64,000 bases of DNA from an uncultured Verrucomicrobiota bacterium (GCA_903847335.1 CAINDI010000143.1:9946-73945); one strand, 5' to 3'. Positions 20,996 through 45,903 are shown, counted from the stretch's first letter. Made by a program: numbers and translations. Notes: generated by a model from the letters alone, not told the origin.

Positions 20996-22177
20996 TTACC
21001 GGCGGTCGAGAATCTCCCAAACTTTTGCGATATAAAACCGGTAATTTGCGAGCGGTGTGCCATTGGGAATCCGGTGATCTAGTCCGAAGACGCAACCGCC
21101 AGTCTGCATGATTACCGGTAGCTTATATTCTAATTCTGCAGTGATTTCTTGCTGACTCCTGCGTAAAATATGTTTATCAAGACCGCCGAGAAAAGCGATA
21201 CGGTTACCATATTGTTCGCGGAGTTTAACGATGTCCATTCCTGCGGCTGGCTCGCACGGGAAAATACAATTTACGCCGGCATCCAAAAACGCCGGGATGA
21301 TTGGTCGCATATCGCCATCGCTATCCTGTTTAAACAAACGTGCACCGCGTTCCTGAGCTAAATCCCAAACGCGCCGGTAATACGGTTTGATAAATTCTTC
21401 GACATGTTTCGGGCCAATGAGCGGCCCACTTCTTCCTGCCATGTCTTCATGCACGGAAAGTTGATCGACGTGTGGCAAGTGTTCGCAAATCCGGACGACG
21501 GTTTCCGTAATGGTTTCGAGAATCGCGTGGATCAGTTCCGGTTGCTCGTAACAGGCCAGCGCTAGAGATTCTTCTCCCATCAGTTGGCGCGGCTCGTCGA
21601 AACCGCCAGGAATTTGAAGCGAGGTCAGTTGACCGGCTGTCGATTGTAACTGGCCGAAGCGCGCTTCCGAAAATTCATAATGCTGCCGGATGCGTTGCCA
21701 ATCATCCATATTTGCCACCGGATACGTTGTCGGCAAAGCCAATGTTGCGGATTTCTTGGCCATCTCCATTCGGCGTCCCATTTGGTCGCGATACACAAGC
21801 GAATCGGCTGTGTCTTCGAGAATGACCGGTTCATCTCCGCCGAGCCAGCCTGTGATTACCGGTAAGTTATTTTCAATGACTGTGCGATATCGGAAAGTCG
21901 AAAGATTGATTTCGACTGGCGTTGCGCCTTGTGCGGCCCATTCTTCTTTCAGCCCCACCAACGGGCCGAAAATTTCCGTGAACAATGGCCGGGTGTTCGC
22001 GCGAAACGTCATGTAGTCGAGATACTCCTCCCGGCTGACGATTTCACCGCCGCGTTTAATTGCGAGTGCTGCGTGAAAGGAGTGGATGTAGTCGTTGACA
22101 TTCATTGGCGTATTTTCTCGTGCGGCGACGGATTCGGCAATGGACAGACTCCGCAAAGTTTTGTACTTATGGCGCAT
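20996..22177 (-). CDS. Uroporphyrinogen decarboxylase (URO-D) superfamily protein, not HemE-like; substrate unknown.
   Basis: 393 aa. The length and hydrophobic TIM-barrel pattern resemble the URO-D/MtaA family. This is the first of two such paralogs in the window. Confidence 0.45.
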   Translation of the reverse strand: MRHKYKTLRSLSIAESVAARENTPMNVNDYIHSFHAALAIKRGGEIVSREEYLDYMTFRANTRPLFTEIFGPLVGLKEEWAAQGATPVEINLSTFRYRTVIENNLPVITGWLGGDEPVILEDTADSLVYRDQMGRRMEMAKKSATLALPTTYPVANMDDWQRIRQHYEFSEARFGQLQSTAGQLTSLQIPGGFDEPRQLMGEESLALACYEQPELIHAILETITETVVRICEHLPHVDQLSVHEDMAGRSGPLIGPKHVEEFIKPYYRRVWDLAQERGARLFKQDSDGDMRPIIPAFLDAGVNCIFPCEPAAGMDIVKLREQYGNRIAFLGGLDKHILRRSQQEITAELEYKLPVIMQTGGCVFGLDHRIPNGTPLANYRFYIAKVWEILDRR

Positions 22178-22946
22178 GGCTCAGATGGTGCTACCGGAGG
22201 TTTGCATCAACACGCCGCCGCTGATTTACCGTTGCGAAACGGGTTGGCGTTGGTGTCCGGCGGCGTTACCTGATTTTGATCTCTGGTATGTGCTGGACGG
22301 CGTTGGGACTGTCGAATTAAACGGAGTTACTCAGGCAGTCGCCGCGCAAACCTGTTTTATTTTTTCACCCGGATCGCAAATCGTTGCTCACCATGACCCC
22401 CAGCACCGGTTGCGCGTATTTGCGGTCCACTTTGACTGGAAAAATCACCGGCGTTTCCGGTTGCCGGCAGACGGAATCAGAGTCCGTGATGCGGTATTCT
22501 TTTCCGCCTTAGCCCGCCGGTGTGCGGCGAGCTATCGACAGGGCACTGCCGTGGCACACCGGCAAAGTGCGGCACTCGTGGCGCAAATGCTATTGCACTT
22601 ATGGGCGGAAGCGGAACAACTCGTCACCTCGGTAATGGATTCACGGATTAGCGCGGCGGTGGAACTCATTCGAGAGGAACCGGGACGACGCTGCACCGTT
22701 GCAGGAATGGCGCAGAAAGCTGGATTATCCCGGTCGCAATTCACTCGGCAATTTACGACAGCAACGGGATTGTCACCGGAGCAGTTTTTCATTCAAGCGC
22801 GAATCGAACGTGCCACGCAATTGTTGCATGAGACCAGTATGACGATCAGCCAGATTGCGGATGCGCTCGGTTATCGGGATGTATTTTATTTCAGCCGGCA
22901 ATTCCGGCAAATCACCGGCAAGCCGGCCTCGGCATGCCGGCGCTGA
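22176..22946 (+). CDS. AraC-family transcriptional regulator: cupin sensor domain plus HTH_AraC.
   Basis: ATG at 22176 (M28) is divergent from the URO-D-like gene, and their start codons overlap. The C-terminal AraC HTH includes GLSRSQFTRQF and IADALGY. Confidence 0.8.
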   Translation: MAQMVLPEVCINTPPLIYRCETGWRWCPAALPDFDLWYVLDGVGTVELNGVTQAVAAQTCFIFSPGSQIVAHHDPQHRLRVFAVHFDWKNHRRFRLPADGIRVRDAVFFSALARRCAASYRQGTAVAHRQSAALVAQMLLHLWAEAEQLVTSVMDSRISAAVELIREEPGRRCTVAGMAQKAGLSRSQFTRQFTTATGLSPEQFFIQARIERATQLLHETSMTISQIADALGYRDVFYFSRQFRQITGKPASACRR

Positions 22947-22951
22947 GATTG

Positions 22952-23506
22952 TTACCAGTAAATGAAATTGGTAAAGCGGCGCTGGTCTTTGGTGGGGAGT
23001 GCTAACACGTCGGGGACGATGAAACGGTTGTCGTTCACATCCAGCAAGACTTTGCCTTCGGCTCCGAAATCTTCCGCCCGGTCGTGACGCCACGGCATGA
23101 TGAATTCCTGCCGGCCACGTTGAGTTTCCACGTCGAAGAATAGCAAGCCAAACTCGTGGCGAACGCCGTACACCCGGTGGATGATGTGTTCGTGGTATTG
23201 CTTTTTCAGAACGGCTTGAATCAAGGTCTGCGTTTCTTTTGGGAATGCGCTGAGGTTTTCAATGACGCCGATTTCGCCGACTTTATCTTTTTCGTCGGTA
23301 TAGCGTAGCGAGATGTAGCGGTCGGGATGGCGAATTGGAAACATCAATACAGCAAACACGCCTCGGTACATCTGGTCGCCTTTCACCGCGCAGTGTAATA
23401 GCGAAAATGCGCCTTCAAAAATGGTGGCCGTTTCCGGTAGCAACCGGCGCACGCCGGTAATCGAGAGCCGGTTGTCAGAGGTTGTTGGGAGAGTCGTGTC
23501 GCTCAT
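22952..23506 (-). CDS. Hypothetical cytoplasmic protein, 184 aa, transcriptionally linked to the upstream ABC exporter (possibly DUF1854-like).
   Basis: Its start codon lies 2 nt after the ABC gene stop on the same strand. It has no TM segments or signal peptide. Confidence 0.4.
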   Translation of the reverse strand: MSDTTLPTTSDNRLSITGVRRLLPETATIFEGAFSLLHCAVKGDQMYRGVFAVLMFPIRHPDRYISLRYTDEKDKVGEIGVIENLSAFPKETQTLIQAVLKKQYHEHIIHRVYGVRHEFGLLFFDVETQRGRQEFIMPWRHDRAEDFGAEGKVLLDVNDNRFIVPDVLALPTKDQRRFTNFIYW

Positions 23507-23508
23507 GG

Positions 23509-25734
23509 TTATGACTCCAACCGGGTCAACTCCGTTTGGATGCGGACTAAATTGTGATAGACACCTTTCAGTTCTAGTAGTTGCTCGTGCGAACCGGATT
23601 CAGCTACTTTGCCTTCATCAATCACATAAATCACATCGGCATTTTTTAATGTCGAGAGCCGGTGGGCAATCGCAATGGTCGTGCGGCCTTTGCATAATCT
23701 GACCAGCGCTTTCTGAATTTCTTGTTCCGATTCGGTGTCCACTGACGAGGTGGCTTCGTCGAGAATGAGAATCTTTGGGTCGCACAGCAATGCACGGGCA
23801 ATGCTGATGCGCTGGCGCTCTCCACCGGAGAGACCGGCACCGCGTTCGCCTAACTTCGTGTCGTAGGCGGACGGAGCGCGAGCGATAAAATCGTGGGCGT
23901 TCGCGGCTTTAGCGGCGTCCATCACAGCCAACGGTGAAGCGCCGGGACGACCGTAGGCGATGTTGTCCATGATTGTCGCTCGGAAAAGGAATGGTTCTTG
24001 AAGAACCAGCGCAACGTGTTTGTGAATGTCGTGCTGAGCGAGTGTGCGCACGTCTTGGTTGTCGATGAGCACTTGTCCATCTTGCGGATCGTAGAATCGG
24101 CAGATGAGATTTACTAAGGTGGTTTTACCGGAGCCACTTTTACCGACGATGCCGACGAACTGGCCGGGCTCAATTTTAATACTGACATTTTTCAGCACCG
24201 GACTGTAGGGATCGTAGCCGAAGGTTACATTGCGGAGCTCAATTGCGCCGTTGATGTTATTCAACGGTGTTGCCTCCGGCTCGTCGGTAATGCCGACGTT
24301 GGCATCCAACACCTCAAATACGCGCTGGCCGGCCGACATGAAACCGGTGAGCCAATTGGAGAACACGCTCATTGCCGAAATCGGTCCGTAGAACATTCCC
24401 ATGTAACCGAAGAATGCCATCAGCGTGCCGAGCGTCAGGTGGCCTTCAAAGACGCGATGACCACCGGCGTACCAGATGATTAATCCGCCGAGGCCGAACA
24501 CGAAACCCATGATTGGATTGAAAGTCGCGACGCTCATTTCGACGGACCGGCGGGCATTCTGCATGTACCGGGCTGAATCGCTGAATCGTTGTTCTTCGCG
24601 TTTTTCCTGTCCAAATAATTTCACCAGTCGGATGCCTTGCAATAGGCCGGTGAGGAGTTGCGACATTTTCGACTGACTATCCGAAAGCCGATAGTATTGT
24701 GGGTAGACATACTTCCAGAAAAAAATTGTTCCGATGACCACGAATGGCACCGGTAGCAAAACTAACAAGGCGAGATGCCAATTCATCATGAACAAGACTG
24801 CACCGATGCCGAGGACGAGAATGACATTTAGCAGAAATCCTTGTGCGACTTGCCAGACGAAACCTTGAAAATATTCCACGTCCCACAACACCCGGCTCAT
24901 TAAACTACCGGCCGAGTGCCGGTCATAATAATCCACGCTCAGACTCATCAGTTTGGTCTGCAGCCGTTCGCGTAATTCCTTAGAAACTCGCGTGCCAATC
25001 ATGCTGCTCGTCCGTCCGATAATCACATTCAAAAATTGTCGACCCAGCGACGCGCCGACCAGTCCGAGCAAAATCAGCGGCAACCAATGGATGTTTTCCT
25101 TCGGCGTCAGGACTTTATCCACGAGAATCCGGGTTAAATACGGAGGCAATAAATCTAATCCGACGCCCATAACCAAGATGCACAGCAGTAGCACGATGGA
25201 GTTCTGATACGGTTTCATTAGCCCCACGGACCGGAAAAACACACTACGACCACCGGCGCAACGTGGACACACCGCCCGGCGCGCCGGCAATGGTAATCCG
25301 CATTTCGTGCACGCAAACTCACTGGGGTGCACTAACGCTTCGGTGTTCAGTGGGTGGCCTTGGATCAGGCGTTCCAATTCCGCACGCACCTTGCCGAAGA
25401 TTTCGCGACGGGCGTTGCTGTAACGCGCCACGTCCACATAGGTGCCATCAATCAGCAGCTGTAAGAAACCGCTGCCAACCGTGTGGCGCGTTTGGACTTT
25501 CTGCGCATCTTTCAGTAAAAAAGGACCGGTGATGAGTGCAGTTGGTTGTGAGTGGGTCGGAACTGTAAAAATTTTTGTTTGAGTAACAACAACCCAAACA
25601 TCCTGAACCGTGCCGTCGATGGTGAGATCGCTGCGGACGCTGAACAGACACGCATCAGCGCCGAGGTTATGAACTTCCGGGCGCGTGTTTAATTCGCTCG
25701 GTACGCGCCCCAACAACAAATCGTTATTCGTCAT
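23509..25734 (-). CDS. ABCB-type exporter (fused TMD-NBD half transporter) with an extra ~160-aa N-terminal cytoplasmic domain containing a CxxC-x10-CxxC zinc ribbon.
   Basis: 741 aa. Residues ~165-480 form a 6-TM ABC exporter domain. The NBD carries Walker A (GKSGSGKTT), the signature (LSGGERQR) and Walker B (ILILDEAT). The N-terminal domain has CTKC...CPRC. Confidence 0.85.
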   Translation of the reverse strand: MTNNDLLLGRVPSELNTRPEVHNLGADACLFSVRSDLTIDGTVQDVWVVVTQTKIFTVPTHSQPTALITGPFLLKDAQKVQTRHTVGSGFLQLLIDGTYVDVARYSNARREIFGKVRAELERLIQGHPLNTEALVHPSEFACTKCGLPLPARRAVCPRCAGGRSVFFRSVGLMKPYQNSIVLLLCILVMGVGLDLLPPYLTRILVDKVLTPKENIHWLPLILLGLVGASLGRQFLNVIIGRTSSMIGTRVSKELRERLQTKLMSLSVDYYDRHSAGSLMSRVLWDVEYFQGFVWQVAQGFLLNVILVLGIGAVLFMMNWHLALLVLLPVPFVVIGTIFFWKYVYPQYYRLSDSQSKMSQLLTGLLQGIRLVKLFGQEKREEQRFSDSARYMQNARRSVEMSVATFNPIMGFVFGLGGLIIWYAGGHRVFEGHLTLGTLMAFFGYMGMFYGPISAMSVFSNWLTGFMSAGQRVFEVLDANVGITDEPEATPLNNINGAIELRNVTFGYDPYSPVLKNVSIKIEPGQFVGIVGKSGSGKTTLVNLICRFYDPQDGQVLIDNQDVRTLAQHDIHKHVALVLQEPFLFRATIMDNIAYGRPGASPLAVMDAAKAANAHDFIARAPSAYDTKLGERGAGLSGGERQRISIARALLCDPKILILDEATSSVDTESEQEIQKALVRLCKGRTTIAIAHRLSTLKNADVIYVIDEGKVAESGSHEQLLELKGVYHNLVRIQTELTRLES

Positions 25735-25829
25735 GGTTCACCGGCAAGCATATGAAGCTTCATGCCGACCGCTGCAAGAAAATTATCGCCGGTACACCTG
25801 AAATGGCATACCGGCGATAATGAGACCGG

Positions 25830-26423
25830 TTATTTATTTACGGCTTCGAAGTATTTCAGCGAGCCTTTCGGATCGGCTTTCATGGTCTTGTCGCCGGGAT
25901 GCCAGTTAGCCGGGCAGACTTCGCCGTTTTTCTCGAAGAATTGGAGTGCATCGAGAATACGAATGGCTTCGTCCACATTCCGTCCGAGCGGTAGGTCGTT
26001 GACGAGCGCGTGGCGGACGATGCCTTGTTGGTCAATGATGAAGAGTCCGCGCAGTGCCACCGCACCGTTGGCAGTGAGCACGCCGTAGCTGGTGGCAATC
26101 TGTTTGGTGAGGTCGGAAACGAGCGGATAATCCAGACCGCCGAGACCGCCGGCCTTCCGGGGAGTGTTAATCCACGCGAGGTGCGTGTATTGGCTATCGA
26201 CGCTGACACCGAGAATTTCGGCGTTGCGGCTTTTGAATTCAGCCACTTTTTCATTGAAGGCGATGATTTCCGTCGGGCAGACGAAAGTGAAATCCAACGG
26301 ATAGAAATAGAGGACGACGTACTTTTTACCTTTGTAGTCGCTCAAACTGATGTCTTTGAATTGGCCGTTGACGACGGCGGTCGCTTTGAATTCTGGGGCT
26401 GGTTTCTGAACGAGTGTGCTCAT
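25830..26423 (-). CDS. Typical 2-Cys peroxiredoxin (AhpC/Tsa family).
   Basis: 197 aa. The peroxidatic Cys motif is FTFVCPTEI. The resolving Cys is in GEVCPANW. Confidence 0.9.
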
Positions 26424-26552
26424 GGTTTAATCTCCTTAAGATTGTTAGTGATTGGGCTGAATGGTAGCACAGGAACAACATTTCGCAAGTGGTCAACGCG
26501 AATGCATAGTTTCGGCTTTCCTCTGTCCACAGTCATCCGATATACTTCCGTC

Positions 26553-28007
26553 ATGTCAGTTCAAAACCGCATCATCAAAGTGCAGAAGCGCAACCGGGCA
26601 TTGGTGACCTTTGACGAGCGGGCAATCTTTCTCGCCATCTTGCGCGCGGCTGAATCCATCGGCGGTCTCCAGCAAGATTACCTGCCGGGCGTCAATGACA
26701 AGCTTTTCGATGCCTACGCGCTCGACGAAAAAGTCGCTGAGTTTCTCACGGATGCCGTCGTCATCTGTCTGAATGCCGATCCACATCACCACATCGCCAA
26801 TTTTCCGCCGACCATCGAAACGATTCAGGATGATGTCGTTCACGTTTTGCGCAGCTATGGATTTCAAAATACCGCCGACGCGTACGAATGTTACCGGTGG
26901 GGTCGGCACTGGTTGCGCGAAGGCGCGATTGCCGATACGCAATTCGTCGGCAACGGTTTTCCTCGCAAACGCATGGAGAAAACTCTCGAATGGAACCGGC
27001 AGCATGGTTGCGATACCGTCACCGGTCTCAACGAAGTCGTTCGCAGTGGCAAACTCCAGCCGCTCGTCGAAGCATCGTTAGCGACCTATGAAGCCTCGCT
27101 CGACGAAGCGGCCAAAAAAGTTATCGCCCGTTTTAACGCCGGCGACAAATTGCGGATGATGTGGATTAGTGGTCCGAGTTCCTCCGGTAAGACCACCACC
27201 ACTGTCAAGCTGACGCAACGCCTCGAAAAACAGGGTCTCCGGTTTCTGATGCTCAACCTTGACGATTATTTTTGGGCACTCATCGAACATCCGACGGATT
27301 GGATTAACGACCGGAATTTTGAAACGCCGGAAGCTCTCGACATTCAACTTCTCAATCAACACCTCAAAGATTTGCTCGCCGGTAAGACCATTGATAAACC
27401 GGTGTACAGCTTCAAAGAAGGCCGGCGCATCGCGACGAAGCCGGTGAAGCTTGAGCCGGAGCAGATTCTTTTGCTCGATTGTCTCCACGGATTTTATCCA
27501 CCGATTACCGAAGGCATTGATCCGAGTGCACAATTCCGCGTCTATATCGAAACTCTCAACGTCATGCTCGAAGGCGATGGTTCCACTCGACGTCTCACGC
27601 GGTTTCCGGATATCCGGCTTATCCGCCGGATGCTCCGCGACGTGCAGCACCGCAATCACAGCCCGCTCTCAACTCTGCTGCATTGGCATTATGTTCGCTG
27701 GGGCGAACTTTTTTCCATCATCCCGCTCATGGGGCTGGCGGACCATGTCGTTAACGCTGGGTTTCCGTTTGACTTGCCGGTGTTAAAATCATTTTTCATC
27801 GGTGCCGGTGGTCATTTACCCTCCGGTGAAGCCATGAACCAATATCGCGGCTTCCTCGATGCGCAAATCCGTCACCGGCGCATCCAGACTTTACTCGAAT
27901 CGGTGACCGGTGTGCCGCAAGACCAGTTGCCCAGCTTAATTCCCGGTGACGCCGTCATCCGTGAATTCATCGGCGGCAGTACCATCCCAATCCCACACAA
28001 CCAATGA
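26553..28007 (+). CDS. ATP-cone domain fused to a uridine kinase / phosphoribulokinase-family P-loop nucleoside kinase.
   Basis: ATG at 26553 (M182 of the ORF-track ORF). The upstream part of that ORF is antisense read-through of the prx gene. The N-terminal ~90 aa is an ATP-cone (IIKVQKRNRALVTFDERAIFLAILRA). The P-loop is ISGPSSSGKTTTT, followed by a PRK-like core. Confidence 0.65.
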   Translation: MSVQNRIIKVQKRNRALVTFDERAIFLAILRAAESIGGLQQDYLPGVNDKLFDAYALDEKVAEFLTDAVVICLNADPHHHIANFPPTIETIQDDVVHVLRSYGFQNTADAYECYRWGRHWLREGAIADTQFVGNGFPRKRMEKTLEWNRQHGCDTVTGLNEVVRSGKLQPLVEASLATYEASLDEAAKKVIARFNAGDKLRMMWISGPSSSGKTTTTVKLTQRLEKQGLRFLMLNLDDYFWALIEHPTDWINDRNFETPEALDIQLLNQHLKDLLAGKTIDKPVYSFKEGRRIATKPVKLEPEQILLLDCLHGFYPPITEGIDPSAQFRVYIETLNVMLEGDGSTRRLTRFPDIRLIRRMLRDVQHRNHSPLSTLLHWHYVRWGELFSIIPLMGLADHVVNAGFPFDLPVLKSFFIGAGGHLPSGEAMNQYRGFLDAQIRHRRIQTLLESVTGVPQDQLPSLIPGDAVIREFIGGSTIPIPHNQ

Positions 28008-29152
28008 ACGACCAAACCAAACTCATTACCGGCCTCCAACAAGCCTGGCGGGACGAAAACGCCAGTGCGCGAAATTACCGGGCGTTGTCGGAACGGGAAT
28101 CCAATCCGGAACGCAAAGCAATTTTACTGCGCCTGGCCGAAGCGGAAGACAAGCACGCCGCGAATTGGCTGGCACGCTTGAAAGAACTCGGCGCTGATCC
28201 CGGCCTTTATCAAGAATCCGCTAGCGAACGAACACGCCGGTGGTTGCTTGTGCAGAGTGGTACCGAAAGTGCCGTCGTCAAGTTGGAGGCGATGGAGAAC
28301 GACGCCGATGCGTTGTACGATGATTTGCTGAAAGTTGCCACCGGTGCTGACCACACGCAAATCGCGGAAGCCCAACGCGAAGAAGAAGCGCATGCCAAAG
28401 TATTGAACGACATGACCGGCGCATTTTCGCCGACGCAACGCAAATTGGACCGGCTGCTCGGTCGTGAGAAATGGCACGTCACCGCCGGTGGTTGGATTGG
28501 CCAAGCGATTTATGGTGCGAACGACGGTCTCGGCGCGGCATTCGGTGTCGTCAGCGGCGTGGCCGGCGCAACGGCGGCGGACGCGAAATTTGTTTTGTTG
28601 GCCGGTGTCACCACGGCGATTGCCTCGGCGTTGTCGATGGGCAGCGGCGCGTACTTGGCGACAAAATCGGAGCGCGAAGTTTACTCTGCTGAAATCGAAC
28701 GGGAACGTCGTGAAATTGCTGAGAACCCGAAAGAAGAACTCGAAGAGATGGCGTTGTTCTACCAGCTCAAAGGTTTTTCACCGGCCGAAGCGGAAAAGAT
28801 GGCGGCCAAACTCGCGGAGCAGCCGGAGCATTTTCTTCAAACGCTGACGCACGAGGAGCTAGGTTTATCGGAACGGTCGTTCCCAAATCCCTGGCGCGCG
28901 GCGTTCAGCGCCACGGCTAGCACGGCAGTCGGCGCATTTATTCCGGTGATTCCATTTTTCTTCATGCACGGCACGCCGGCGTTGATTGCGTCCTTTGTCA
29001 TCAGTACCGCGGCGCATTTTGGGGTGGGGGCGGCGAAAGTGATTGTCACCGGTCGGTCGTGGTTTAAGAGCGGGATGGAAATGACATTCGTCGGACTCGG
29101 CGAAGCCATCATTACCTACGGCATCGGTTTGCTAATTGCGCGCATCCGGTAA
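28004..29152 (+). CDS. mbfA: Erythrin-VIT1 family protein (MbfA-like): N-terminal ferritin/rubrerythrin-like diiron domain plus C-terminal CCC1/VIT1 iron-manganese transporter domain.
   Basis: ATG overlaps the stop of the preceding gene (ATGA at 28004-28007). The N-terminal half has ferritin-like E-x-x-H pairs (AEAEDKH, EEEAHAKV). The C-terminal 5-TM VIT domain contains GANDGL. Confidence 0.7.
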   Translation: MNDQTKLITGLQQAWRDENASARNYRALSERESNPERKAILLRLAEAEDKHAANWLARLKELGADPGLYQESASERTRRWLLVQSGTESAVVKLEAMENDADALYDDLLKVATGADHTQIAEAQREEEAHAKVLNDMTGAFSPTQRKLDRLLGREKWHVTAGGWIGQAIYGANDGLGAAFGVVSGVAGATAADAKFVLLAGVTTAIASALSMGSGAYLATKSEREVYSAEIERERREIAENPKEELEEMALFYQLKGFSPAEAEKMAAKLAEQPEHFLQTLTHEELGLSERSFPNPWRAAFSATASTAVGAFIPVIPFFFMHGTPALIASFVISTAAHFGVGAAKVIVTGRSWFKSGMEMTFVGLGEAIITYGIGLLIARIR

Positions 29153-29202
29153 TGCAGCTTGACGAAGCAGACAGCGGCACCTATGGTGTGAACAGATTTG
29201 AC

Positions 29203-29279
<77 letters not shown>

Positions 29280-29288
29280 ACGTACGAC

Positions 29289-40216: not shown

Positions 40217-43111
40217 TCAAACTCCACACTTGAATTGGGAGCTAATGCCGTTAATCTGCTGGCAGACCAATTTACCAACGTGACCACTCCTGATAACTGG
40301 TTAAAGAATTTCGCCGTACCGGCGACCGACAATCGTCCAATGCCACTCTGGGTTTGGAATGGCGAGGTGAGCGAGGCGCGCATCACTGTCATGCTGGAGC
40401 AAATTGCTGCGCAACATTGCGGTGGCGTTTTTATCCATCCCCGGCCCGGACTCATCACTGAATATCTTTCCGAACGCTGGTTTGAATTGTGGGCCTTTGC
40501 GCTCCGAGAATGCGAACGACTTGGTTTGGAATGTCACATCTACGATGAGAATTCTTTTCCGTCCGGTTTTGCCGGCGGCCATGTGCCGGCTACCGACCCC
40601 AACACCGTTGCGGAGACGATGACCGGCGTTGCCGATGGTCAGTTTGTCCTCAAGAAAGCACCACCGGATCCATTTCATGCCGGCTTCGGTTACGTCGATC
40701 TCGCTCGTCCGGGAACGACAGAATTATTTCTTCAAACCACTCACGCGCAGTATGTCCGCCGCTTTCAAAGTGAATTCGGGAAGCGAATCAAATACGCATT
40801 TACCGATGAACCGGAGCTTTACAGCCGCGATGGTCTCGCGTGGTCGGCACATTTGGCGCAAGAATTTCAGCGCGAACACGGTTACGCACTTACGGACCGG
40901 CTAACTGCATTTGCCGGTACCGACGAATCAGCGTGCGCCGTCCGATTTGATTATTTCTCGACGGCGCAAAGATTGTTCACTGAAAATTTTCTCCAACCGA
41001 TGCACGATTGGTGCGCCGCCCACGAACTCGCATTCACCGGTCACTTCAACGAACACGTCTGGCCGGTGCCGTGCGATGTACCGGACATCATGGCGGCATT
41101 ACGCTGGATGCATGTTCCCGGTAACGACCTACTCGGTTTTCAATTCACACCAACCAACCGCGTGGCTAACGGTGTGCGTCTGTTGAATCTCACTGAGCTT
41201 CGCAGCGTCGCTAACCAACTCGGTCGCGACCGAGTGCTTTGCGAAACCACCGGTGGTGGCGGCTACGGATTTGCGCTCGCCGATGCCAAAGCGCTTGAAG
41301 ATTTTGCCCTCGCCAACGGCGTCAATTTTATTAATCCACACCTCAGTTACGAAACGCTCGCCGGCGCGCGCAAATACGATTGGCCACAAACATTCAGCGA
41401 TCACAGCCCGTGGTGGGATGCCTACCGGTTGAATGCCGACCACACCGCGCGTGTTGTTCACGCTCTCCGGCAAGGCCGCGAACAGAACCGGATTCTCGTG
41501 CTGCAACCCACCACGACCGCGTGGATTCATTACCGTCCACCGTCGTTTAAGTCCGACAAAAAACTCGATCCGGTCATCGCCCAACTCCGCCAATCGCAAA
41601 TCGAATTGGTGCTGGCATTGCACGGTGAACATTTTGATTTTGATCTCGGCGACGAACTAATCATGGCCGAACTTGGCGCGGCGGAAGCCGGTCAGCTGCG
41701 TGTTGGCGAGCGCAATTACGATGTCGTGGTGATACCGGTAGGAATGGAAAACCTGCTCGACAGCACAGCGGCATTGCTACAGCAATTCAAAGAAGCCGGT
41801 GGAAAAATTTTGGTTGCCGGCGAATTGCCGACATTTATGCGCGGTCGAAAGCTTGCCGACACAACGCCGTTCGCCAGTTGGGAACGCTGTGGTTCGACGG
41901 AAAAACTTTTGACGCGACTCCGGCAACTTGTTCCGCCGCGATTTACTGCGCCGGCCGACTGGTGCGTGATGCGGAAGGAATTGCCCGCCGGTGATATTTT
42001 GTATTTCATCGCGAATCCGTGGGACCAAGCGCAACGCGCCACCATTCAGCTCGAAGGTCGCAACGCCGTACTCCTCGACACCGCGACCGGCACGATGTCG
42101 GCGCTAGAAAATTTCGAGTTAGATTTACCGGCTCGCGGACACGCGTTGGTGTTGATGTCACCGGTGGCTGCTCCGGTGAAAGTTCAACCAAAATGGCGCG
42201 GCGCGGAAGTTGGGCCGGTTAGCGTCGAACGGGCGGACGTGAATGTTCTCGCCCTCGACTACTGCGACTTCGGCGTCGAAAAAAGTTTGCCGACGATTGC
42301 GGCGGATTTGAAAAATTGGCAGGCGAATGGTTTTCCGCGTAATATGTGGAGCGTCAGCACTCAGTACAAACAGACAATTCTGGATGCGCCAATCGCTACC
42401 GGTAGCGGTTTCACGGTGCGCTACCGGTTTCATACACTGCAAATGTCGCTGGAATTAGCAGTGGAACGGCCATGGCTGTACCGGATTACCCTGAACGGAA
42501 AACTAGTTTCGTTTGAAGGAGCAAGCCGGTGGTTTGATGAAGACATTCGGCGCGTCAATATCTCTGGCCTTGTCGTCGCTGGCGAAAACATCATCGAGCT
42601 GACGGCGCAGAAGTTCAACGTGCTCTGCGAGATTATGCCGGTTTATCTTTTGGGAAATTTTTCGGTCACGCCGGGGAGTATTGGATTTGTTCTCGAGCCG
42701 GCGCGGCCGCTCGCCTTGGGTGATTGGGTAGGGCAGGGACTACCATTTTATCCGTGGGGTGTGCGGTACCGGATGTCGATTGGTTTGACACAACCAGCCC
42801 GGCAAATCGCGGTGGAATTACCGGAATGGGCCGGCTCTGTTGCGCACATTTATTGGAATGGTACATCGCGTGGTGCTATCGCATTTCCGCCTTACCGGCT
42901 CGAATGGACAGAAGATGTGCCGGTGGGCGAACACGAATTGGTCGTTGAGGTTCGCGGCAATCTTAAAAATTTACTTGGCCCACATTTCAGCGATGGTTTA
43001 CCGGGACCGTGGAGTTGGCAGGCCGCCCCGCAACCGCAACCGGCGGGTAGCCAGTATAAATTTTCGCCAACCGGTCTCCAGAAACCGCCGCGCTGTTGGT
43101 TCGCCTCTTAA
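40205..43111 (+). CDS. Large cytoplasmic glycoside hydrolase with an N-terminal (beta/alpha)8 barrel and C-terminal beta-sandwich domains. Tentatively GH106-like (alpha-L-rhamnosidase-type). Paralog of 52239..55346.
   Basis: 968 aa with no signal peptide. The N-terminal block is PLWVWNGEV...GGVFIHPRPGL...YDENSFPSGFAGG. The C-terminal region (LLGNFSV...GDWVGQGLPFYPWGVRY) is shared with the paralog. The true start may be internal, around 40340. Confidence 0.55.
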   Translation: MQAQSNSTLELGANAVNLLADQFTNVTTPDNWLKNFAVPATDNRPMPLWVWNGEVSEARITVMLEQIAAQHCGGVFIHPRPGLITEYLSERWFELWAFALRECERLGLECHIYDENSFPSGFAGGHVPATDPNTVAETMTGVADGQFVLKKAPPDPFHAGFGYVDLARPGTTELFLQTTHAQYVRRFQSEFGKRIKYAFTDEPELYSRDGLAWSAHLAQEFQREHGYALTDRLTAFAGTDESACAVRFDYFSTAQRLFTENFLQPMHDWCAAHELAFTGHFNEHVWPVPCDVPDIMAALRWMHVPGNDLLGFQFTPTNRVANGVRLLNLTELRSVANQLGRDRVLCETTGGGGYGFALADAKALEDFALANGVNFINPHLSYETLAGARKYDWPQTFSDHSPWWDAYRLNADHTARVVHALRQGREQNRILVLQPTTTAWIHYRPPSFKSDKKLDPVIAQLRQSQIELVLALHGEHFDFDLGDELIMAELGAAEAGQLRVGERNYDVVVIPVGMENLLDSTAALLQQFKEAGGKILVAGELPTFMRGRKLADTTPFASWERCGSTEKLLTRLRQLVPPRFTAPADWCVMRKELPAGDILYFIANPWDQAQRATIQLEGRNAVLLDTATGTMSALENFELDLPARGHALVLMSPVAAPVKVQPKWRGAEVGPVSVERADVNVLALDYCDFGVEKSLPTIAADLKNWQANGFPRNMWSVSTQYKQTILDAPIATGSGFTVRYRFHTLQMSLELAVERPWLYRITLNGKLVSFEGASRWFDEDIRRVNISGLVVAGENIIELTAQKFNVLCEIMPVYLLGNFSVTPGSIGFVLEPARPLALGDWVGQGLPFYPWGVRYRMSIGLTQPARQIAVELPEWAGSVAHIYWNGTSRGAIAFPPYRLEWTEDVPVGEHELVVEVRGNLKNLLGPHFSDGLPGPWSWQAAPQPQPAGSQYKFSPTGLQKPPRCWFAS

Positions 43112-45903
43112 TCGCCGAGACCCAAAAAGGAATGACCGGGCGCAGCTTCGAGGAGAAAGTGCACGGTACCGGCTTCTTTGTTGGAGAGATGGGTTTTCAA
43201 GATACCGTGTTCGGTTTCCAGAGTGGTAACTTGGTTTGTAAGTGGATCGCCGTTAAAATTCAGTGGTGTCAAATGCCAGATTTTGGCACCGGTCTTCAAA
43301 GTGAAGTCGGCGGTGACCGGCTCCATCAGGATTGGTGAGTCCCCTTGTTTGTCGAGCCGGTATCGATCACCGCGTTTGCCGTATTGCTGACCGGTATTGC
43401 GGGTGCGCCCGACGAGAGCGATGTGAATGCTGTGCGACTTATTCACCGGTCGATGGTCGAGACTGGAGAAATGTACGACGCCGTAGGCATCGTTCAAAGT
43501 CGCGGTCAAGCCACCATCCTGGAAGGTTTGATTGGAGAGGAAACCCATCACGCCTTGGGTTTTCGGCGTGTTGATGCGAATAAAACCTTGGTCGTAATTC
43601 CAGATTAATTCACCGGTACTGCTGGTGATGGTTTTAGCTTTTTCATCATGGCACTTCCGGTAGGTTTTTTCATCCCAGACAGCCGGATATTTCTTCGGAT
43701 CAAACGATAATTCGACCCGGCCAATGAACGCCGCCTCCGGTGGGCAAGGAGTGCCACCGAATAGCATGGCGAACTGAGTATCAGATTCCCGGCTTTGCAG
43801 AGTGCGCTTGCGGAGTGGATTGTGCAGTGCGGTTTCATCGAGTGCGTTGCGATAAATAAGCGGTGCAGGTTTGACGTCGCCACGAACATAGAGGTAATGC
43901 GCCAACGGTTCGCAGGCCATTTGCGCTGGATTGTCAAACATTCCGAAAATCGAGTTCAGGAAACCAGCGGAGTCAACATCGTCCACTACGAAATGATGAT
44001 TCGCCGATAAATTTTGAAGCGCACCGTAGGCCGCCATGAATGGGCCGGCTTCGACGGTGTAGTCGTTGGGCCATGGGAATTGCCATTCGGTGCAGGTGAA
44101 TGGTTTGCCGGCGGGTTGCTGGTAAATGAACATGAAGAAATTATCCTTAGGAGATTTTTCAATCGGTAAATTTTCAAAGGTCACGGCGTTGGGCACCCAG
44201 CCGCCGAGCGGATGCAGCCAATAGCTATGTTTACCGGCGAAGTCGAAATTCGCATTGGCGGCTGTCTGGATTTCTTGGAGATAATTCGGACCGCCCCACG
44301 ATGAACCTTGCAACAATGTCCGGCTACCGGTGCTCCGGAGGACATCACGCACTTTGCTGAACCAGTTCACTTCGAGTTCGTAGTAAAATTTAGTCTGATC
44401 GGCGGCGCGATTAACTTCAGCGGGACGGATGTTGGCGAGATTACCAATATTGCGGAGCGCGATGGTTTCCTTGCTCAAGCTTTCGGTGATGAGGTCGAGT
44501 GGGCTGGTCTCATTCGCTACACGCCAAGCAGTCTGTAGTCCGCTATCGTCGCCGTATTTCTTTTTCAGCCAAGCATTCCATAATTCTTGGAGCTTGAGCC
44601 GGTAGCTACTCGGAATGGCATCGGTCGGATAAAAGAACAAGCTACATTCATTGACGACTTTGAACATGTTGAAGGCGGGTTCTTCTGCGTAAGTCCGGCC
44701 AGTATAAGGATTTTTATGTGCCAGAAATTCCCGGAGAAAAGTGAGATACAATTCCTGGTGGCGTTCATCATAAAAATACTGGGTATTGTTTAACCCCGAG
44801 ATTTTATCCGCCTGCTTCACACCGGCGGCTTCAGTCCACAGATGGCTGAAGAGCATGGACGCTTTGATACTGATACCAGCTTTCTGTAGTTCGTTAACGA
44901 AGTAGTCAAATTTATCGAGTCGTTTGAGGTCGAGTTTGTGCGGGTCGGTGCGGTCGCTTTGGAATGTGTCCATCAAGGAGTGGAACCGGACTTGATTGAA
45001 GCCAAACTTGGTGAGCCGGCGGATATAATGTTGTGCGAGCGATTTCGGCGGAAAGAGACTCGCGCCACCGAGGACAACGCCTTGGAAGCGGACGGCTTGG
45101 TCATCGTCAAAGAGCAACCGCTCGCCGTCGGCGTGCAGCCAGCCGGTGCGCGATTTGACAAAACCTTTTTCCCACGCGGCAACGGTGTCTTTATCGTAGT
45201 TGAACTTCAGTGGAAACCAATTCTCTACTCCGGCAGCAACTGGCTTCCAAGTCAGTTGGCCTTGCACCAGTTCCTCCTCCGGTTTATCGCCAAAACTCAC
45301 GCCTAAAACCGCGAGCGATCCACCGGTAAACGTTGATTTGAAAGTTAGACTCGTTACCGCTTTGTTCGGTTGTGTCAGCTTTAGCGGAATCAGATAAACG
45401 CCAATGGTTGCGCCTTGGCCGTTTTGGCCATGCCACGCGACAGTTCCGCGCTCCAGTTCATGCGGCCCCCACCAACCACTGATTCGGTCACCCAAAGTCA
45501 ATGGAATGGATTGTGTTTCGCCACCTTCGTACTGGATATCCACCGTCACCACCACGCCATCACCGCCCCACACATAGGTGGCGAGCAGATAAAGAAATTT
45601 TCCTTTTATCTTTGATACCGTGAGTTTCACTGTCTCCGGTAACGCGGGTAAATTTTTACCGCCGAGCATCAACGCCGCCGGGCCGTTCTCAATAATTGCA
45701 AACGGCACGCCTTTGAAAGTTTGCTGCCCGCGTGGAAATCCCGATAAGCAATTATCTTTGCCTTGACCGGTCCAGCCGGCGCGTTCTACTGAGTCGGTCA
45801 ACTCCCGGTTGGCAACTGAATTCAGTGGTACTGTCACAAATTCGGCGCGAACCACGTTGGTGGTGAGTATCAATAGACAGAAGAGGCGTGTAAAAACTTT
45901 CAT
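43108..45903 (-). CDS. Secreted multidomain glycoside hydrolase with a central clan GH-A (GH5-like) TIM barrel, plus N-terminal and C-terminal beta-rich accessory domains.
   Basis: 931 aa. Signal peptide MKVFTRLFCLLILTTNVVRA. The central region has FNQVRFHS and a VVNE acid/base-like motif. The family assignment is tentative. Confidence 0.5.
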   Translation of the reverse strand: MKVFTRLFCLLILTTNVVRAEFVTVPLNSVANRELTDSVERAGWTGQGKDNCLSGFPRGQQTFKGVPFAIIENGPAALMLGGKNLPALPETVKLTVSKIKGKFLYLLATYVWGGDGVVVTVDIQYEGGETQSIPLTLGDRISGWWGPHELERGTVAWHGQNGQGATIGVYLIPLKLTQPNKAVTSLTFKSTFTGGSLAVLGVSFGDKPEEELVQGQLTWKPVAAGVENWFPLKFNYDKDTVAAWEKGFVKSRTGWLHADGERLLFDDDQAVRFQGVVLGGASLFPPKSLAQHYIRRLTKFGFNQVRFHSLMDTFQSDRTDPHKLDLKRLDKFDYFVNELQKAGISIKASMLFSHLWTEAAGVKQADKISGLNNTQYFYDERHQELYLTFLREFLAHKNPYTGRTYAEEPAFNMFKVVNECSLFFYPTDAIPSSYRLKLQELWNAWLKKKYGDDSGLQTAWRVANETSPLDLITESLSKETIALRNIGNLANIRPAEVNRAADQTKFYYELEVNWFSKVRDVLRSTGSRTLLQGSSWGGPNYLQEIQTAANANFDFAGKHSYWLHPLGGWVPNAVTFENLPIEKSPKDNFFMFIYQQPAGKPFTCTEWQFPWPNDYTVEAGPFMAAYGALQNLSANHHFVVDDVDSAGFLNSIFGMFDNPAQMACEPLAHYLYVRGDVKPAPLIYRNALDETALHNPLRKRTLQSRESDTQFAMLFGGTPCPPEAAFIGRVELSFDPKKYPAVWDEKTYRKCHDEKAKTITSSTGELIWNYDQGFIRINTPKTQGVMGFLSNQTFQDGGLTATLNDAYGVVHFSSLDHRPVNKSHSIHIALVGRTRNTGQQYGKRGDRYRLDKQGDSPILMEPVTADFTLKTGAKIWHLTPLNFNGDPLTNQVTTLETEHGILKTHLSNKEAGTVHFLLEAAPGHSFLGLGD

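What the first reader, a model, noticed from the sequence alone, without database searches (positions are those of the whole stretch)
22952..25734. ABC exporter carrying an N-terminal zinc-ribbon domain, with a translationally linked 184-aa partner
The ABCB-type half transporter has an unusual ~160-aa cytoplasmic N-terminal extension. This region is beta-rich and ends in a CxxC-x10-CxxC zinc ribbon immediately before TM1. The extension is not a standard peptidase (C39) or any other accessory domain that I recognise. A soluble 184-aa protein gene starts 2 nt after the transporter stop. The pair could be a regulated exporter module, possibly the known ABC+DUF1854 association. If so, the function is still uncharacterised.
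Basis: partly seen in the sequence, partly recalled or inferred. Interest (0 to 1): 0.55.

Follow-up and report, generated by a model that had tools for sequence, protein, structure and literature searches.

The report
ABC exporter with PH-like domain and DUF1854 partner
This is a real, widely conserved two-gene unit: an ABC exporter with a PH-like domain and zinc ribbon at its cytoplasmic start, plus a small DUF1854 partner; the family is already catalogued, its cargo is unknown, and this copy is not linked to cyanophycin genes.

Summary
The 741-aa ABCB-type half-transporter (23509..25734, minus strand) is followed after 2 nt by a 184-aa ORF (22952..23506). That ORF is a clear Pfam DUF1854 protein.

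- **Conservation of the pair.** All 116 full-length homologues among the 120 best hits keep the ribbon. Of 39 two-gene loci from species-representative genomes, 30 have a gap of -4 to +5 nt. In 8 further loci the two genes are fused into one ORF: PH-like, zinc ribbon, membrane domain, ATPase, DUF1854.
- **Relation to the named family.** The nearest named relatives are NCBIfam's "cyanophycin metabolism-associated" ABC and DUF1854 pair. Both proteins score well below those cut-offs.
- **No cyanophycin link here.** No cphA gene lies in the window or in 62 related loci. Two loci of the cyanophycin type carry cphA and cphA' next to the pair.

My reading is a self-contained exporter complex with a cytoplasmic platform of small beta-rich modules. 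The platform probably docks or gates cargo made inside the cell. The cargo is unknown. This is a new member of a known but uncharacterised kind, of moderate to low interest.

The parts
23509..25734 (-). Gene for the 741-aa ABCB-type (type IV fold) half-transporter: PH-like domain, zinc ribbon, membrane domain, ATPase domain
   Evidence: ORF. Pfam ABC_membrane E 3e-39 and ABC_tran E 6e-36. More than 1470 homologues, many at 60-67% identity over the full length.
25363..25653 (-). PH-like domain, about residues 28-124: seven beta strands and then a long C-terminal helix (107-124)
25258..25311 (-). Zinc ribbon, C142-x2-C145-x10-C156-x2-C159 (CTKCGLPLPARRAVCPRC), about 20 residues before TM1
   Evidence: The four Cys are invariant in alignment A1. 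The motif is in 116 of 116 full-length homologues. The same motif occurs in the ABC of a cyanophycin-type locus, L062, and close variants occur in the intermediate clades L063 and L064. Metal binding itself was not tested.
24382..25191 (-). Transmembrane domain, residues 182-451
   Evidence: Pfam PF00664 matches profile positions 3-273 of 274. This region is very highly conserved across phyla.
23530..24195 (-). Nucleotide-binding domain, residues about 514-735, with intact Walker A (GKSGSGKT, 531), Q-loop, LSGG signature (635), Walker B ILILDE (655) and H-loop AHR (690)
   Evidence: Pfam PF00005. Motif scan.
23504..23518 (-). Coupling junction: GGAG (23518..23515), TAA stop (23511..23509), CC, ATG (23506..23504)
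   Evidence: Sequence. In 30 of 39 related two-gene loci the gap is -4 to +5 nt (most often 1 nt). A GGAG formed by the conserved C-terminal ...RLE codons lies 8-10 nt before the ATG in most of these.
22952..23506 (-). Gene for the 184-aa soluble DUF1854 protein: two small beta-rich halves, each ending in a helix
   Evidence: Pfam PF08909 at E 6.8e-24. 216 homologues, the best 120 at about 58-98% identity. AlphaFold2 model with pLDDT 83. No hydrophobic segment. Fused to the ATPase C-terminus in 8 loci and in 14 of the 150 best representative clusters.
25782..25821 (-). 17-bp hairpin with a T-rich tail between the upstream peroxiredoxin gene and the ABC start; a likely terminator that would set the pair apart as its own transcription unit
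   Evidence: Pattern scan only. Function not tested.

Best explanation
The two genes form a self-contained operon for one exporter complex. The transporter is a homodimeric ABCB-type exporter with intact ATPase motifs.

Each half starts with a cytoplasmic PH-like domain. A four-cysteine zinc ribbon ties that domain to the segment just before TM1. The DUF1854 protein is made in step with the transporter through translational coupling. It sits in the cytoplasm as a stoichiometric subunit near the C-terminus of the ATPase domain.

I infer that the PH-like domain and DUF1854 together form a cytoplasmic platform. The platform would dock cargo made inside the cell, most likely a peptide or polymer, or would gate its entry into the transporter.

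This copy belongs to a clade found in Verrucomicrobiota, Lentisphaerae, Kiritimatiellia, Planctomycetota and Armatimonadota. That clade is a sister of the cyanophycin-synthetase-linked clade, but it is not linked to cphA, so its cargo is probably different and remains unknown.

Shown: the domain architecture, the conservation, the coupling, the fusions and the absence of cphA nearby. Inferred: physical contact between the parts, the docking or gating role, and the nature of the cargo.
For: - Architecture: Pfam domains and the DUF1854 match; PH-like fold; invariant cysteines; intact ATPase motifs.
- Partnership: DUF1854 lies directly downstream in Verrucomicrobiales, Lentisphaerae and Armatimonadota genomes. 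It also does so in nearly all complete loci among 53 species-representative genome loci.
- Coupling: 30 of 39 two-gene loci have gaps of -4 to +5 nt, mostly with a GGAG just upstream of the start.
- Fusion: 8 loci carry a single-ORF fusion of the ABC and DUF1854. The six that are complete at the N-terminus read PH-like, zinc ribbon, membrane domain, ATPase, linker of about 40 aa, DUF1854. A further 14 fused clusters appear among the best 150 representatives.
- Only the pair is conserved; flanking genes are not.
- Kinship with the cyanophycin-linked pair: NF052233 gives 567 bits across residues 28-735. The extension alone hits profile positions 31-160 at E 5e-4. The ABC of locus L062 carries the same ribbon.
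- Published cofitness of DUF1854, the ABC transporter and cphA/cphA' in two beta-proteobacteria led those authors to propose DUF1854 as a subunit of a polymer exporter (10.1101/072470).
- Precedent: PH-domain proteins are needed for ABC-dependent export of a leaderless bacteriocin (PMC8657885).
Against: - No interaction or transport experiment exists for any member, and I could not run a multimer prediction.
- No candidate cargo gene is conserved near the pair.
- A position at the ATPase C-terminus fits a regulatory role as well as a docking role.
- The zinc ribbon is missing in some family members (5 of 14 fused representatives and the L061 ABC), so it is not essential to the family's mechanism.
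Confidence: 0.6

Rival explanations
1. Regulatory model. The PH-like domain and DUF1854 do not touch the cargo. They sense a cytoplasmic ligand or signal and switch the ATPase on or off, as the C-terminal regulatory domains of MalK, MetN and ModC do (comparison from established knowledge of those transporters).
For: In the natural fusions DUF1854 is attached to the C-terminus of the ATPase domain, which is where such regulatory domains sit. Residues conserved across the whole DUF1854 family are few and mostly structural: P57, G80 and G131, plus E78, T128 and D156.
Against: Nothing here separates this model from cargo docking. No ligand is suggested by any match. The two-module platform (N-terminal PH-like plus DUF1854) is more elaborate than known trans-inhibition domains.
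Confidence: 0.25
2. Cyanophycin-type model. This pair exports a cyanophycin-like amino-acid polymer made by CphA enzymes encoded elsewhere in the genome, as proposed for the beta-proteobacterial clade.
For: The best NCBIfam hits for both proteins are the cyanophycin metabolism-associated models. Cofitness has been published for that clade.
Against: - Both scores are far below the equivalog cut-offs: 567 against 880, and 47.9 against 150.
- tblastn with four CphA proteins from loci of that type finds no cphA in the 64-kb window or in the other 62 loci searched. The only hits were weak partial matches to parts of CphA (E 2e-6 to 3e-4, under 50 bits) in four loci. Both loci of that type carry cphA and cphA' beside the pair.
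- The ABC is only 39% identical to the L062 ABC.
Confidence: 0.1
3. Lipid model. The transporter flips a lipid or lipid-linked molecule, as MsbA or PglK do, and the membrane-proximal PH/GRAM-like domain reads lipid head groups.
Against: The MsbA score is below its cut-off of 602 and is typical of any ABCB exporter. The loop between the first two strands (TIDGT) has no basic residues of the kind that bind phosphoinositides (read from the sequence). The published fitness link in the sister clade points to a peptide-like polymer.
Confidence: 0.1

Closest known systems
Cyanophycin metabolism-associated ABC transporter plus DUF1854 protein (NCBIfam NF052233 / NF052234; DUF1854 proposed as a subunit of an amino-acid-polymer exporter, bioRxiv 10.1101/072470)
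   Same: The domain plan is the same: PH-like extension (with the zinc ribbon in L062), membrane domain, ATPase, and a DUF1854 gene directly downstream.
   Different: Both proteins score well below the equivalog cut-offs. The ABC is 39% identical to the L062 ABC. No cphA or cphA' lies nearby, here or in 62 related loci. The DUF1854 protein is about 30 aa longer (184 against about 156 aa).
Pfam PF08909 (DUF1854), described by Pfam as sometimes fused to ABC transporters (as reported in 10.1101/072470)
   Same: The 184-aa ORF is a clear member. I saw the fusions directly in Planctomycetota and other lineages.
   Different: There is no difference in kind. This is a free-standing member of a clade whose sequences are about 60% identical to one another.
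Peptidase-containing ABC exporters and HlyB-type exporters with an N-terminal C39 or C39-like cytoplasmic domain
   Same: A cytoplasmic accessory domain precedes TM1 of an ABCB-type exporter, in the position used there for substrate recognition (from established knowledge of PCAT1 and HlyB).
   Different: The fold here is PH-like plus a zinc ribbon, not a papain-like C39 fold. There is no C39 Pfam hit, and no conserved Cys/His pair outside the ribbon.
PH-domain proteins DdE and DdF, required for ABC-dependent export of the leaderless bacteriocin enterocin DD14 (PMC8657885)
   Same: Bacterial PH-type modules act as required accessories of ABC-mediated export of a product made in the cytoplasm.
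   Different: Those are separate proteins working with a different class of ABC transporter in Firmicutes. I tested no sequence relationship to them, and the extension here matches no Pfam family at all.
Wzt O-antigen ABC transporter with a C-terminal carbohydrate-binding domain
   Same: A beta-rich cytoplasmic module at the ATPase C-terminus selects a polymer cargo (from established knowledge). This mirrors where DUF1854 sits in the fused forms.
   Different: Wzt belongs to a different ABC class, with a separate membrane subunit. No structural match to it appeared in the fold searches.

Membership tests
Pfam PF08909 DUF1854 | Profile score above the gathering cut-off (26.8 bits) | tested here: met
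   84.6 bits, E 6.8e-24, residues 47-178.
ABCB-type (type IV fold) ABC exporter | ABC_membrane domain (PF00664) followed by ABC_tran (PF00005), with intact Walker A, signature, Walker B and H-loop motifs | tested here: met
   135.7 and 124.6 bits. Motifs found at residues 531, 635, 655 and 690.
DUF1854-partnered ABC exporter architecture | DUF1854 gene directly downstream of the ABC gene, or fused to it | tested here: met
   The gap is 2 nt here. 30 of 39 related loci have gaps of -4 to +5 nt and 8 are fused.
DUF1854-partnered ABC exporter architecture | N-terminal PH-like extension, usually followed by a four-cysteine ribbon, before TM1 | tested here: met
   The same plan appears in L062, L063 and L064 and in most fused forms.
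NCBIfam NF052233 cyanophycin metabolism-associated ABC transporter (equivalog) | Score at or above the 880-bit cut-off | tested here: not met
   566.9 bits.
NCBIfam NF052234 cyanophycin metabolism-associated DUF1854 protein (equivalog) | Score at or above the 150-bit cut-off | tested here: not met
   47.9 bits. Members of that family score 200-238 bits.
Cyanophycin-associated exporter system | cphA and cphA' genes next to the pair | tested here: not met
   They are present in L061 and L062. They are absent from the window and the other 62 loci by tblastn and from the window's large ORFs by Pfam. The rest of the genome could not be checked.
PCAT / C39-peptidase ABC exporters | N-terminal C39 peptidase or C39-like domain | tested here: not met
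   No Pfam hit in residues 1-180. The fold is PH-like.
PH-like fold | Seven-stranded beta sandwich capped by a C-terminal helix, with structural matches to PH-like domains | tested here: met
Curated bacterial PH families (Pfam bPH_1 to bPH_6, GRAM) | Profile match | tested here: not met
   No such family was reported at E <= 1.
Zinc ribbon | Two CxxC knuckles that bind one zinc ion | tested here: inconclusive
   The four Cys are invariant. The model shows only short strand contacts there, at pLDDT about 81-83. Metal binding cannot be tested with these tools.

The most novel reading that the evidence does not exclude
DUF1854-partnered exporters may form a large, unrecognised class of ABC exporters: 1327 representative clusters at E <= 0.001, most of them outside the cyanophycin-linked clade. 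In this class a cytoplasmic cage of PH-like modules (the N-terminal domain plus DUF1854) would select the cargo. The clade seen here, in Verrucomicrobiota and related phyla, would export a conserved and still unknown product made in the cytoplasm, not cyanophycin.
Probability: 0.3. Interest if true: 0.6.

Novelty: new member of a known kind. Interest (0 to 1): 0.3.

Why it matters
The pair is strongly conserved. The transporters are 60-67% identical between different phyla, yet no cargo or phenotype is known outside one cyanophycin-linked clade.

Knowing that the extension is a PH-like domain tied to TM1 by a zinc ribbon, and that DUF1854 is a fused or coupled cytoplasmic subunit, gives a concrete structural hypothesis for how these exporters choose their cargo. 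It also warns against transferring the name "cyanophycin metabolism-associated" to this clade.

The gain is incremental. The gene association itself was already known.

Tried and rejected
- **Extension as a diverged copy of DUF1854.** Rejected: hhalign gives probability 0.1-0.2% for the whole protein and for either half.
- **Sequence matches to solved structures.** None was significant for either part.
- **Natural forms without the extension.** The 570-aa homologues P0028, P0029 and P0032 begin 80-130 nt from a contig end (P0027 was not looked up). The DNA upstream in L060 looks like an insertion-sequence end, so these are assembly breaks or insertions.
- **DUF1854 as a Cys/His enzyme.** H38 and C39 are conserved only within this clade, not across the family.
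- **Conserved neighbours.** The URO-D-like, AraC, peroxiredoxin and other flanking genes do not recur. The most widespread neighbour family was found in 5 loci.
- **Plasmid search with DUF1854.** No match.
- **AlphaFold database fold search.** The library was unavailable.
- **Metagenome scan with the extension.** It returned two copies from near-identical strains (94-99% protein identity; L065 is 98% identical in DNA) and one unrelated zinc-ribbon protein. The reverse test, whether every ABC with this extension has a DUF1854 partner, therefore rests on 6 look-ups of ABC homologues plus matching contig lengths in the two hit lists.
- **DUF1854 as an internal duplication.** There is only a weak hint (hhalign E 0.003, 14 columns).

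Full report
**What is in the sequence.**
- The minus strand carries a 741-aa ORF (23509..25734) and a 184-aa ORF (22952..23506).
- The junction reads TTGGAGTCATAACCATG: a TAA stop, two nucleotides, then ATG, with a GGAG 8 nt before the start.
- Pfam places an ABC exporter membrane domain at residues 182-451 and an ATPase domain at 514-663. Nothing matches residues 1-180.
- The small ORF matches DUF1854 (PF08909) at E 6.8e-24.
- The ATPase motifs are intact, and the small protein has no hydrophobic segment.
- The zinc-ribbon motif is C142-x2-C145-x10-C156-x2-C159.

**The N-terminal extension.**
- The extension has no significant sequence match in the PDB.
- An AlphaFold2 model built from 103 homologues (pLDDT 84, pTM 0.75) shows seven strands followed by a long helix (107-124), and then the cysteine motif.
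- The extension is therefore a PH-like domain joined to the pre-TM1 segment by a zinc ribbon. It is not a C39 peptidase.
- Because an ABCB exporter starts and ends in the cytoplasm (established topology of this fold), the extension is cytoplasmic. This is an inference.
- The four cysteines are invariant in the alignment and present in all 116 full-length homologues among the best 120.
- Four 570-aa homologues appear to lack the extension. The three I looked up all sit at contig ends. In one of them the upstream DNA looks like an insertion-sequence end.

**The DUF1854 partner.**
- It has 216 homologues by word-seeded search, the best 120 at about 58-98% identity.
- A full profile scan of 1.84 billion representatives finds 1327 clusters at E <= 0.001.
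- Its model (pLDDT 83) has two beta-rich halves, each ending in a helix.
- It is not detectably related to the N-terminal extension.
- Across the wider family only a few residues are conserved: P57, E78, G80, T128, G131 and D156.

**Conservation of the pair.**
- Look-ups in Verrucomicrobiales, Lentisphaerae and Armatimonadota genomes all show the ABC gene followed directly by DUF1854, with unrelated flanking genes.
- A scan of species-representative genomes with the DUF1854 alignment found 53 loci. They come from Verrucomicrobiota, Lentisphaerae, Kiritimatiellia, Planctomycetota, Armatimonadota and one MAG labelled Deltaproteobacteria.
- In nearly every complete locus an ABC gene with the extension and the ribbon lies directly upstream.
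- Of 39 two-gene loci, 30 have a gap of -4 to +5 nt. The most common gap is 1 nt. The conserved C-terminal codons of the ABC gene supply a GGAG before the start in most of them.
- In 8 loci, mostly Planctomycetota, the two genes are one ORF. The six that are complete at the N-terminus are 954-983 aa, and a linker of about 40 aa was measured in L052.
- A further 14 of the best 150 representative clusters are fusions. Fusion is strong evidence that the two proteins work as one complex.
- No other gene family recurs near the pair.
- In the window the neighbours are ordinary metabolic and stress genes. A strong hairpin separates the pair from the upstream peroxiredoxin gene.

**Relation to the named family.**
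- NCBIfam's best hits are the cyanophycin metabolism-associated ABC transporter (567 bits, cut-off 880) and the matching DUF1854 protein (47.9 bits, cut-off 150).
- The transporter alignment covers residues 28-735. The extension alone hits profile positions 31-160 at E 5e-4.
- I retrieved six DUF1854 proteins that pass the cut-off, at 200-238 bits. I looked up the loci of two of them, L061 and L062.
- Both loci carry cphA and cphA' next to the ABC gene and DUF1854.
- The L062 transporter has the same CxxC-x10-CxxC ribbon and is 39% identical to the window protein. The L061 transporter has lost the ribbon.
- Two intermediate clades, L063 and L064, also have the extension, a variant of the ribbon and an overlapping ATGA junction, but no cphA.
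- tblastn with the four CphA proteins finds no homologue in the window or in the other 62 loci.
- The PH-like domain is thus the norm in the DUF1854-partnered family. The ribbon is frequent and occurs in both clades but has been lost repeatedly. Linkage to cyanophycin synthetases is a feature of one clade only.

**Literature.**
- The only functional evidence I found is a mutant-fitness study. It shows DUF1854 cofit with an ABC transporter and cphA/cphA' in two beta-proteobacteria.
- Its authors proposed DUF1854 as a subunit of an exporter of an amino-acid polymer (10.1101/072470).
- A survey of activated sludge notes cphA clusters with an unclassified ABC transporter and no cyanophycinase (PMC10687191).
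- PH-domain proteins are needed for ABC-dependent export of enterocin DD14 (PMC8657885). This is a functional precedent, not a homologue.
- I found no biochemical or structural study of the family.

**Mechanism and verdict.**
- I am confident (about 0.9) that this is one exporter complex. It would be a transporter dimer with two cytoplasmic PH-like/zinc-ribbon modules and two DUF1854 subunits near the ATPase C-termini.
- I favour a cargo-docking or gating role for that cytoplasmic platform (about 0.4-0.5) over a purely regulatory role (about 0.25). The data do not separate the two.
- A cyanophycin-like cargo is unlikely here (about 0.1). A lipid cargo is possible but unsupported (about 0.1).
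- The source is most likely an uncultured Verrucomicrobiota-type bacterium. The closest genome copy is 85% identical in the ABC protein. One metagenome contig is 98% identical in DNA.
- The finding is real and correctly read. It is a new member of an already catalogued but uncharacterised family. The added value is the fold assignment, the fusions, and the separation from the cyanophycin-linked clade.

Noticed in passing
L059:1-80 and L060:1-131 (homologues at 88% identity): Contigs end just upstream of an internal Met that follows the zinc ribbon. The reverse strand of L060:1-60 begins MKGKRYTTEDKIR, which resembles the start of an IS3-type transposase. This suggests an insertion sequence between the ribbon and TM1 in that population.
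   Followed up: partly
L065 (Ga0118677_10000129) against window 21225-29280 and 52110-52461: A 151-kb metagenome contig is 98% identical in DNA to the window across the pair. Its first 352 nt match window 52110-52461, which implies a rearrangement or assembly breakpoint near window 29280.
   Followed up: no
window 25782-25821 (-): A 17-bp perfect-looking hairpin with a T-rich tail lies 9 nt after the peroxiredoxin stop. It is a likely terminator.
   Followed up: no
window 43108-45903 (-): A 931-aa ORF with no Pfam match at E <= 1e-5. It lies next to an ORF with an alpha-L-rhamnosidase-family (GH106) match, and a second such ORF lies about 6 kb away at 52239-55346.
   Followed up: no
window 28004-29152 (+) and 26010-28007 (+): The first ORF is a rubrerythrin-like plus VIT1 iron-transporter fusion. 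The second combines an ATP-cone with a uridine-kinase-like domain; the listed ORF overlaps the peroxiredoxin gene, so its true start is probably near 26550.
   Followed up: no
window 22952-23506 (-), residues 81-94 and 163-176: The two halves of DUF1854 share a weak motif, (I/V)I(E/P)D(L/V)xx(F/L)Pxxx(Q/R), at the junction of the last strand and the helix (hhalign E 0.003). This hints at an internal duplication.
   Followed up: partly
L061:7696-10004: In one cyanophycin-type locus the ABC gene is called as two ORFs (527 and 242 aa), and its extension lacks the zinc ribbon.
   Followed up: partly
L003:13176-14186, L004:10884-11894 and window 20996-22177 (-): A URO-D-family gene lies just downstream of the pair in a Lentisphaerae genome and, with an AraC gene in between, in the window. 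The window's URO-D protein found no match at that position in L003 or L004 and matched only L014, about 8 kb from the pair, so this is probably coincidence.
   Followed up: yes
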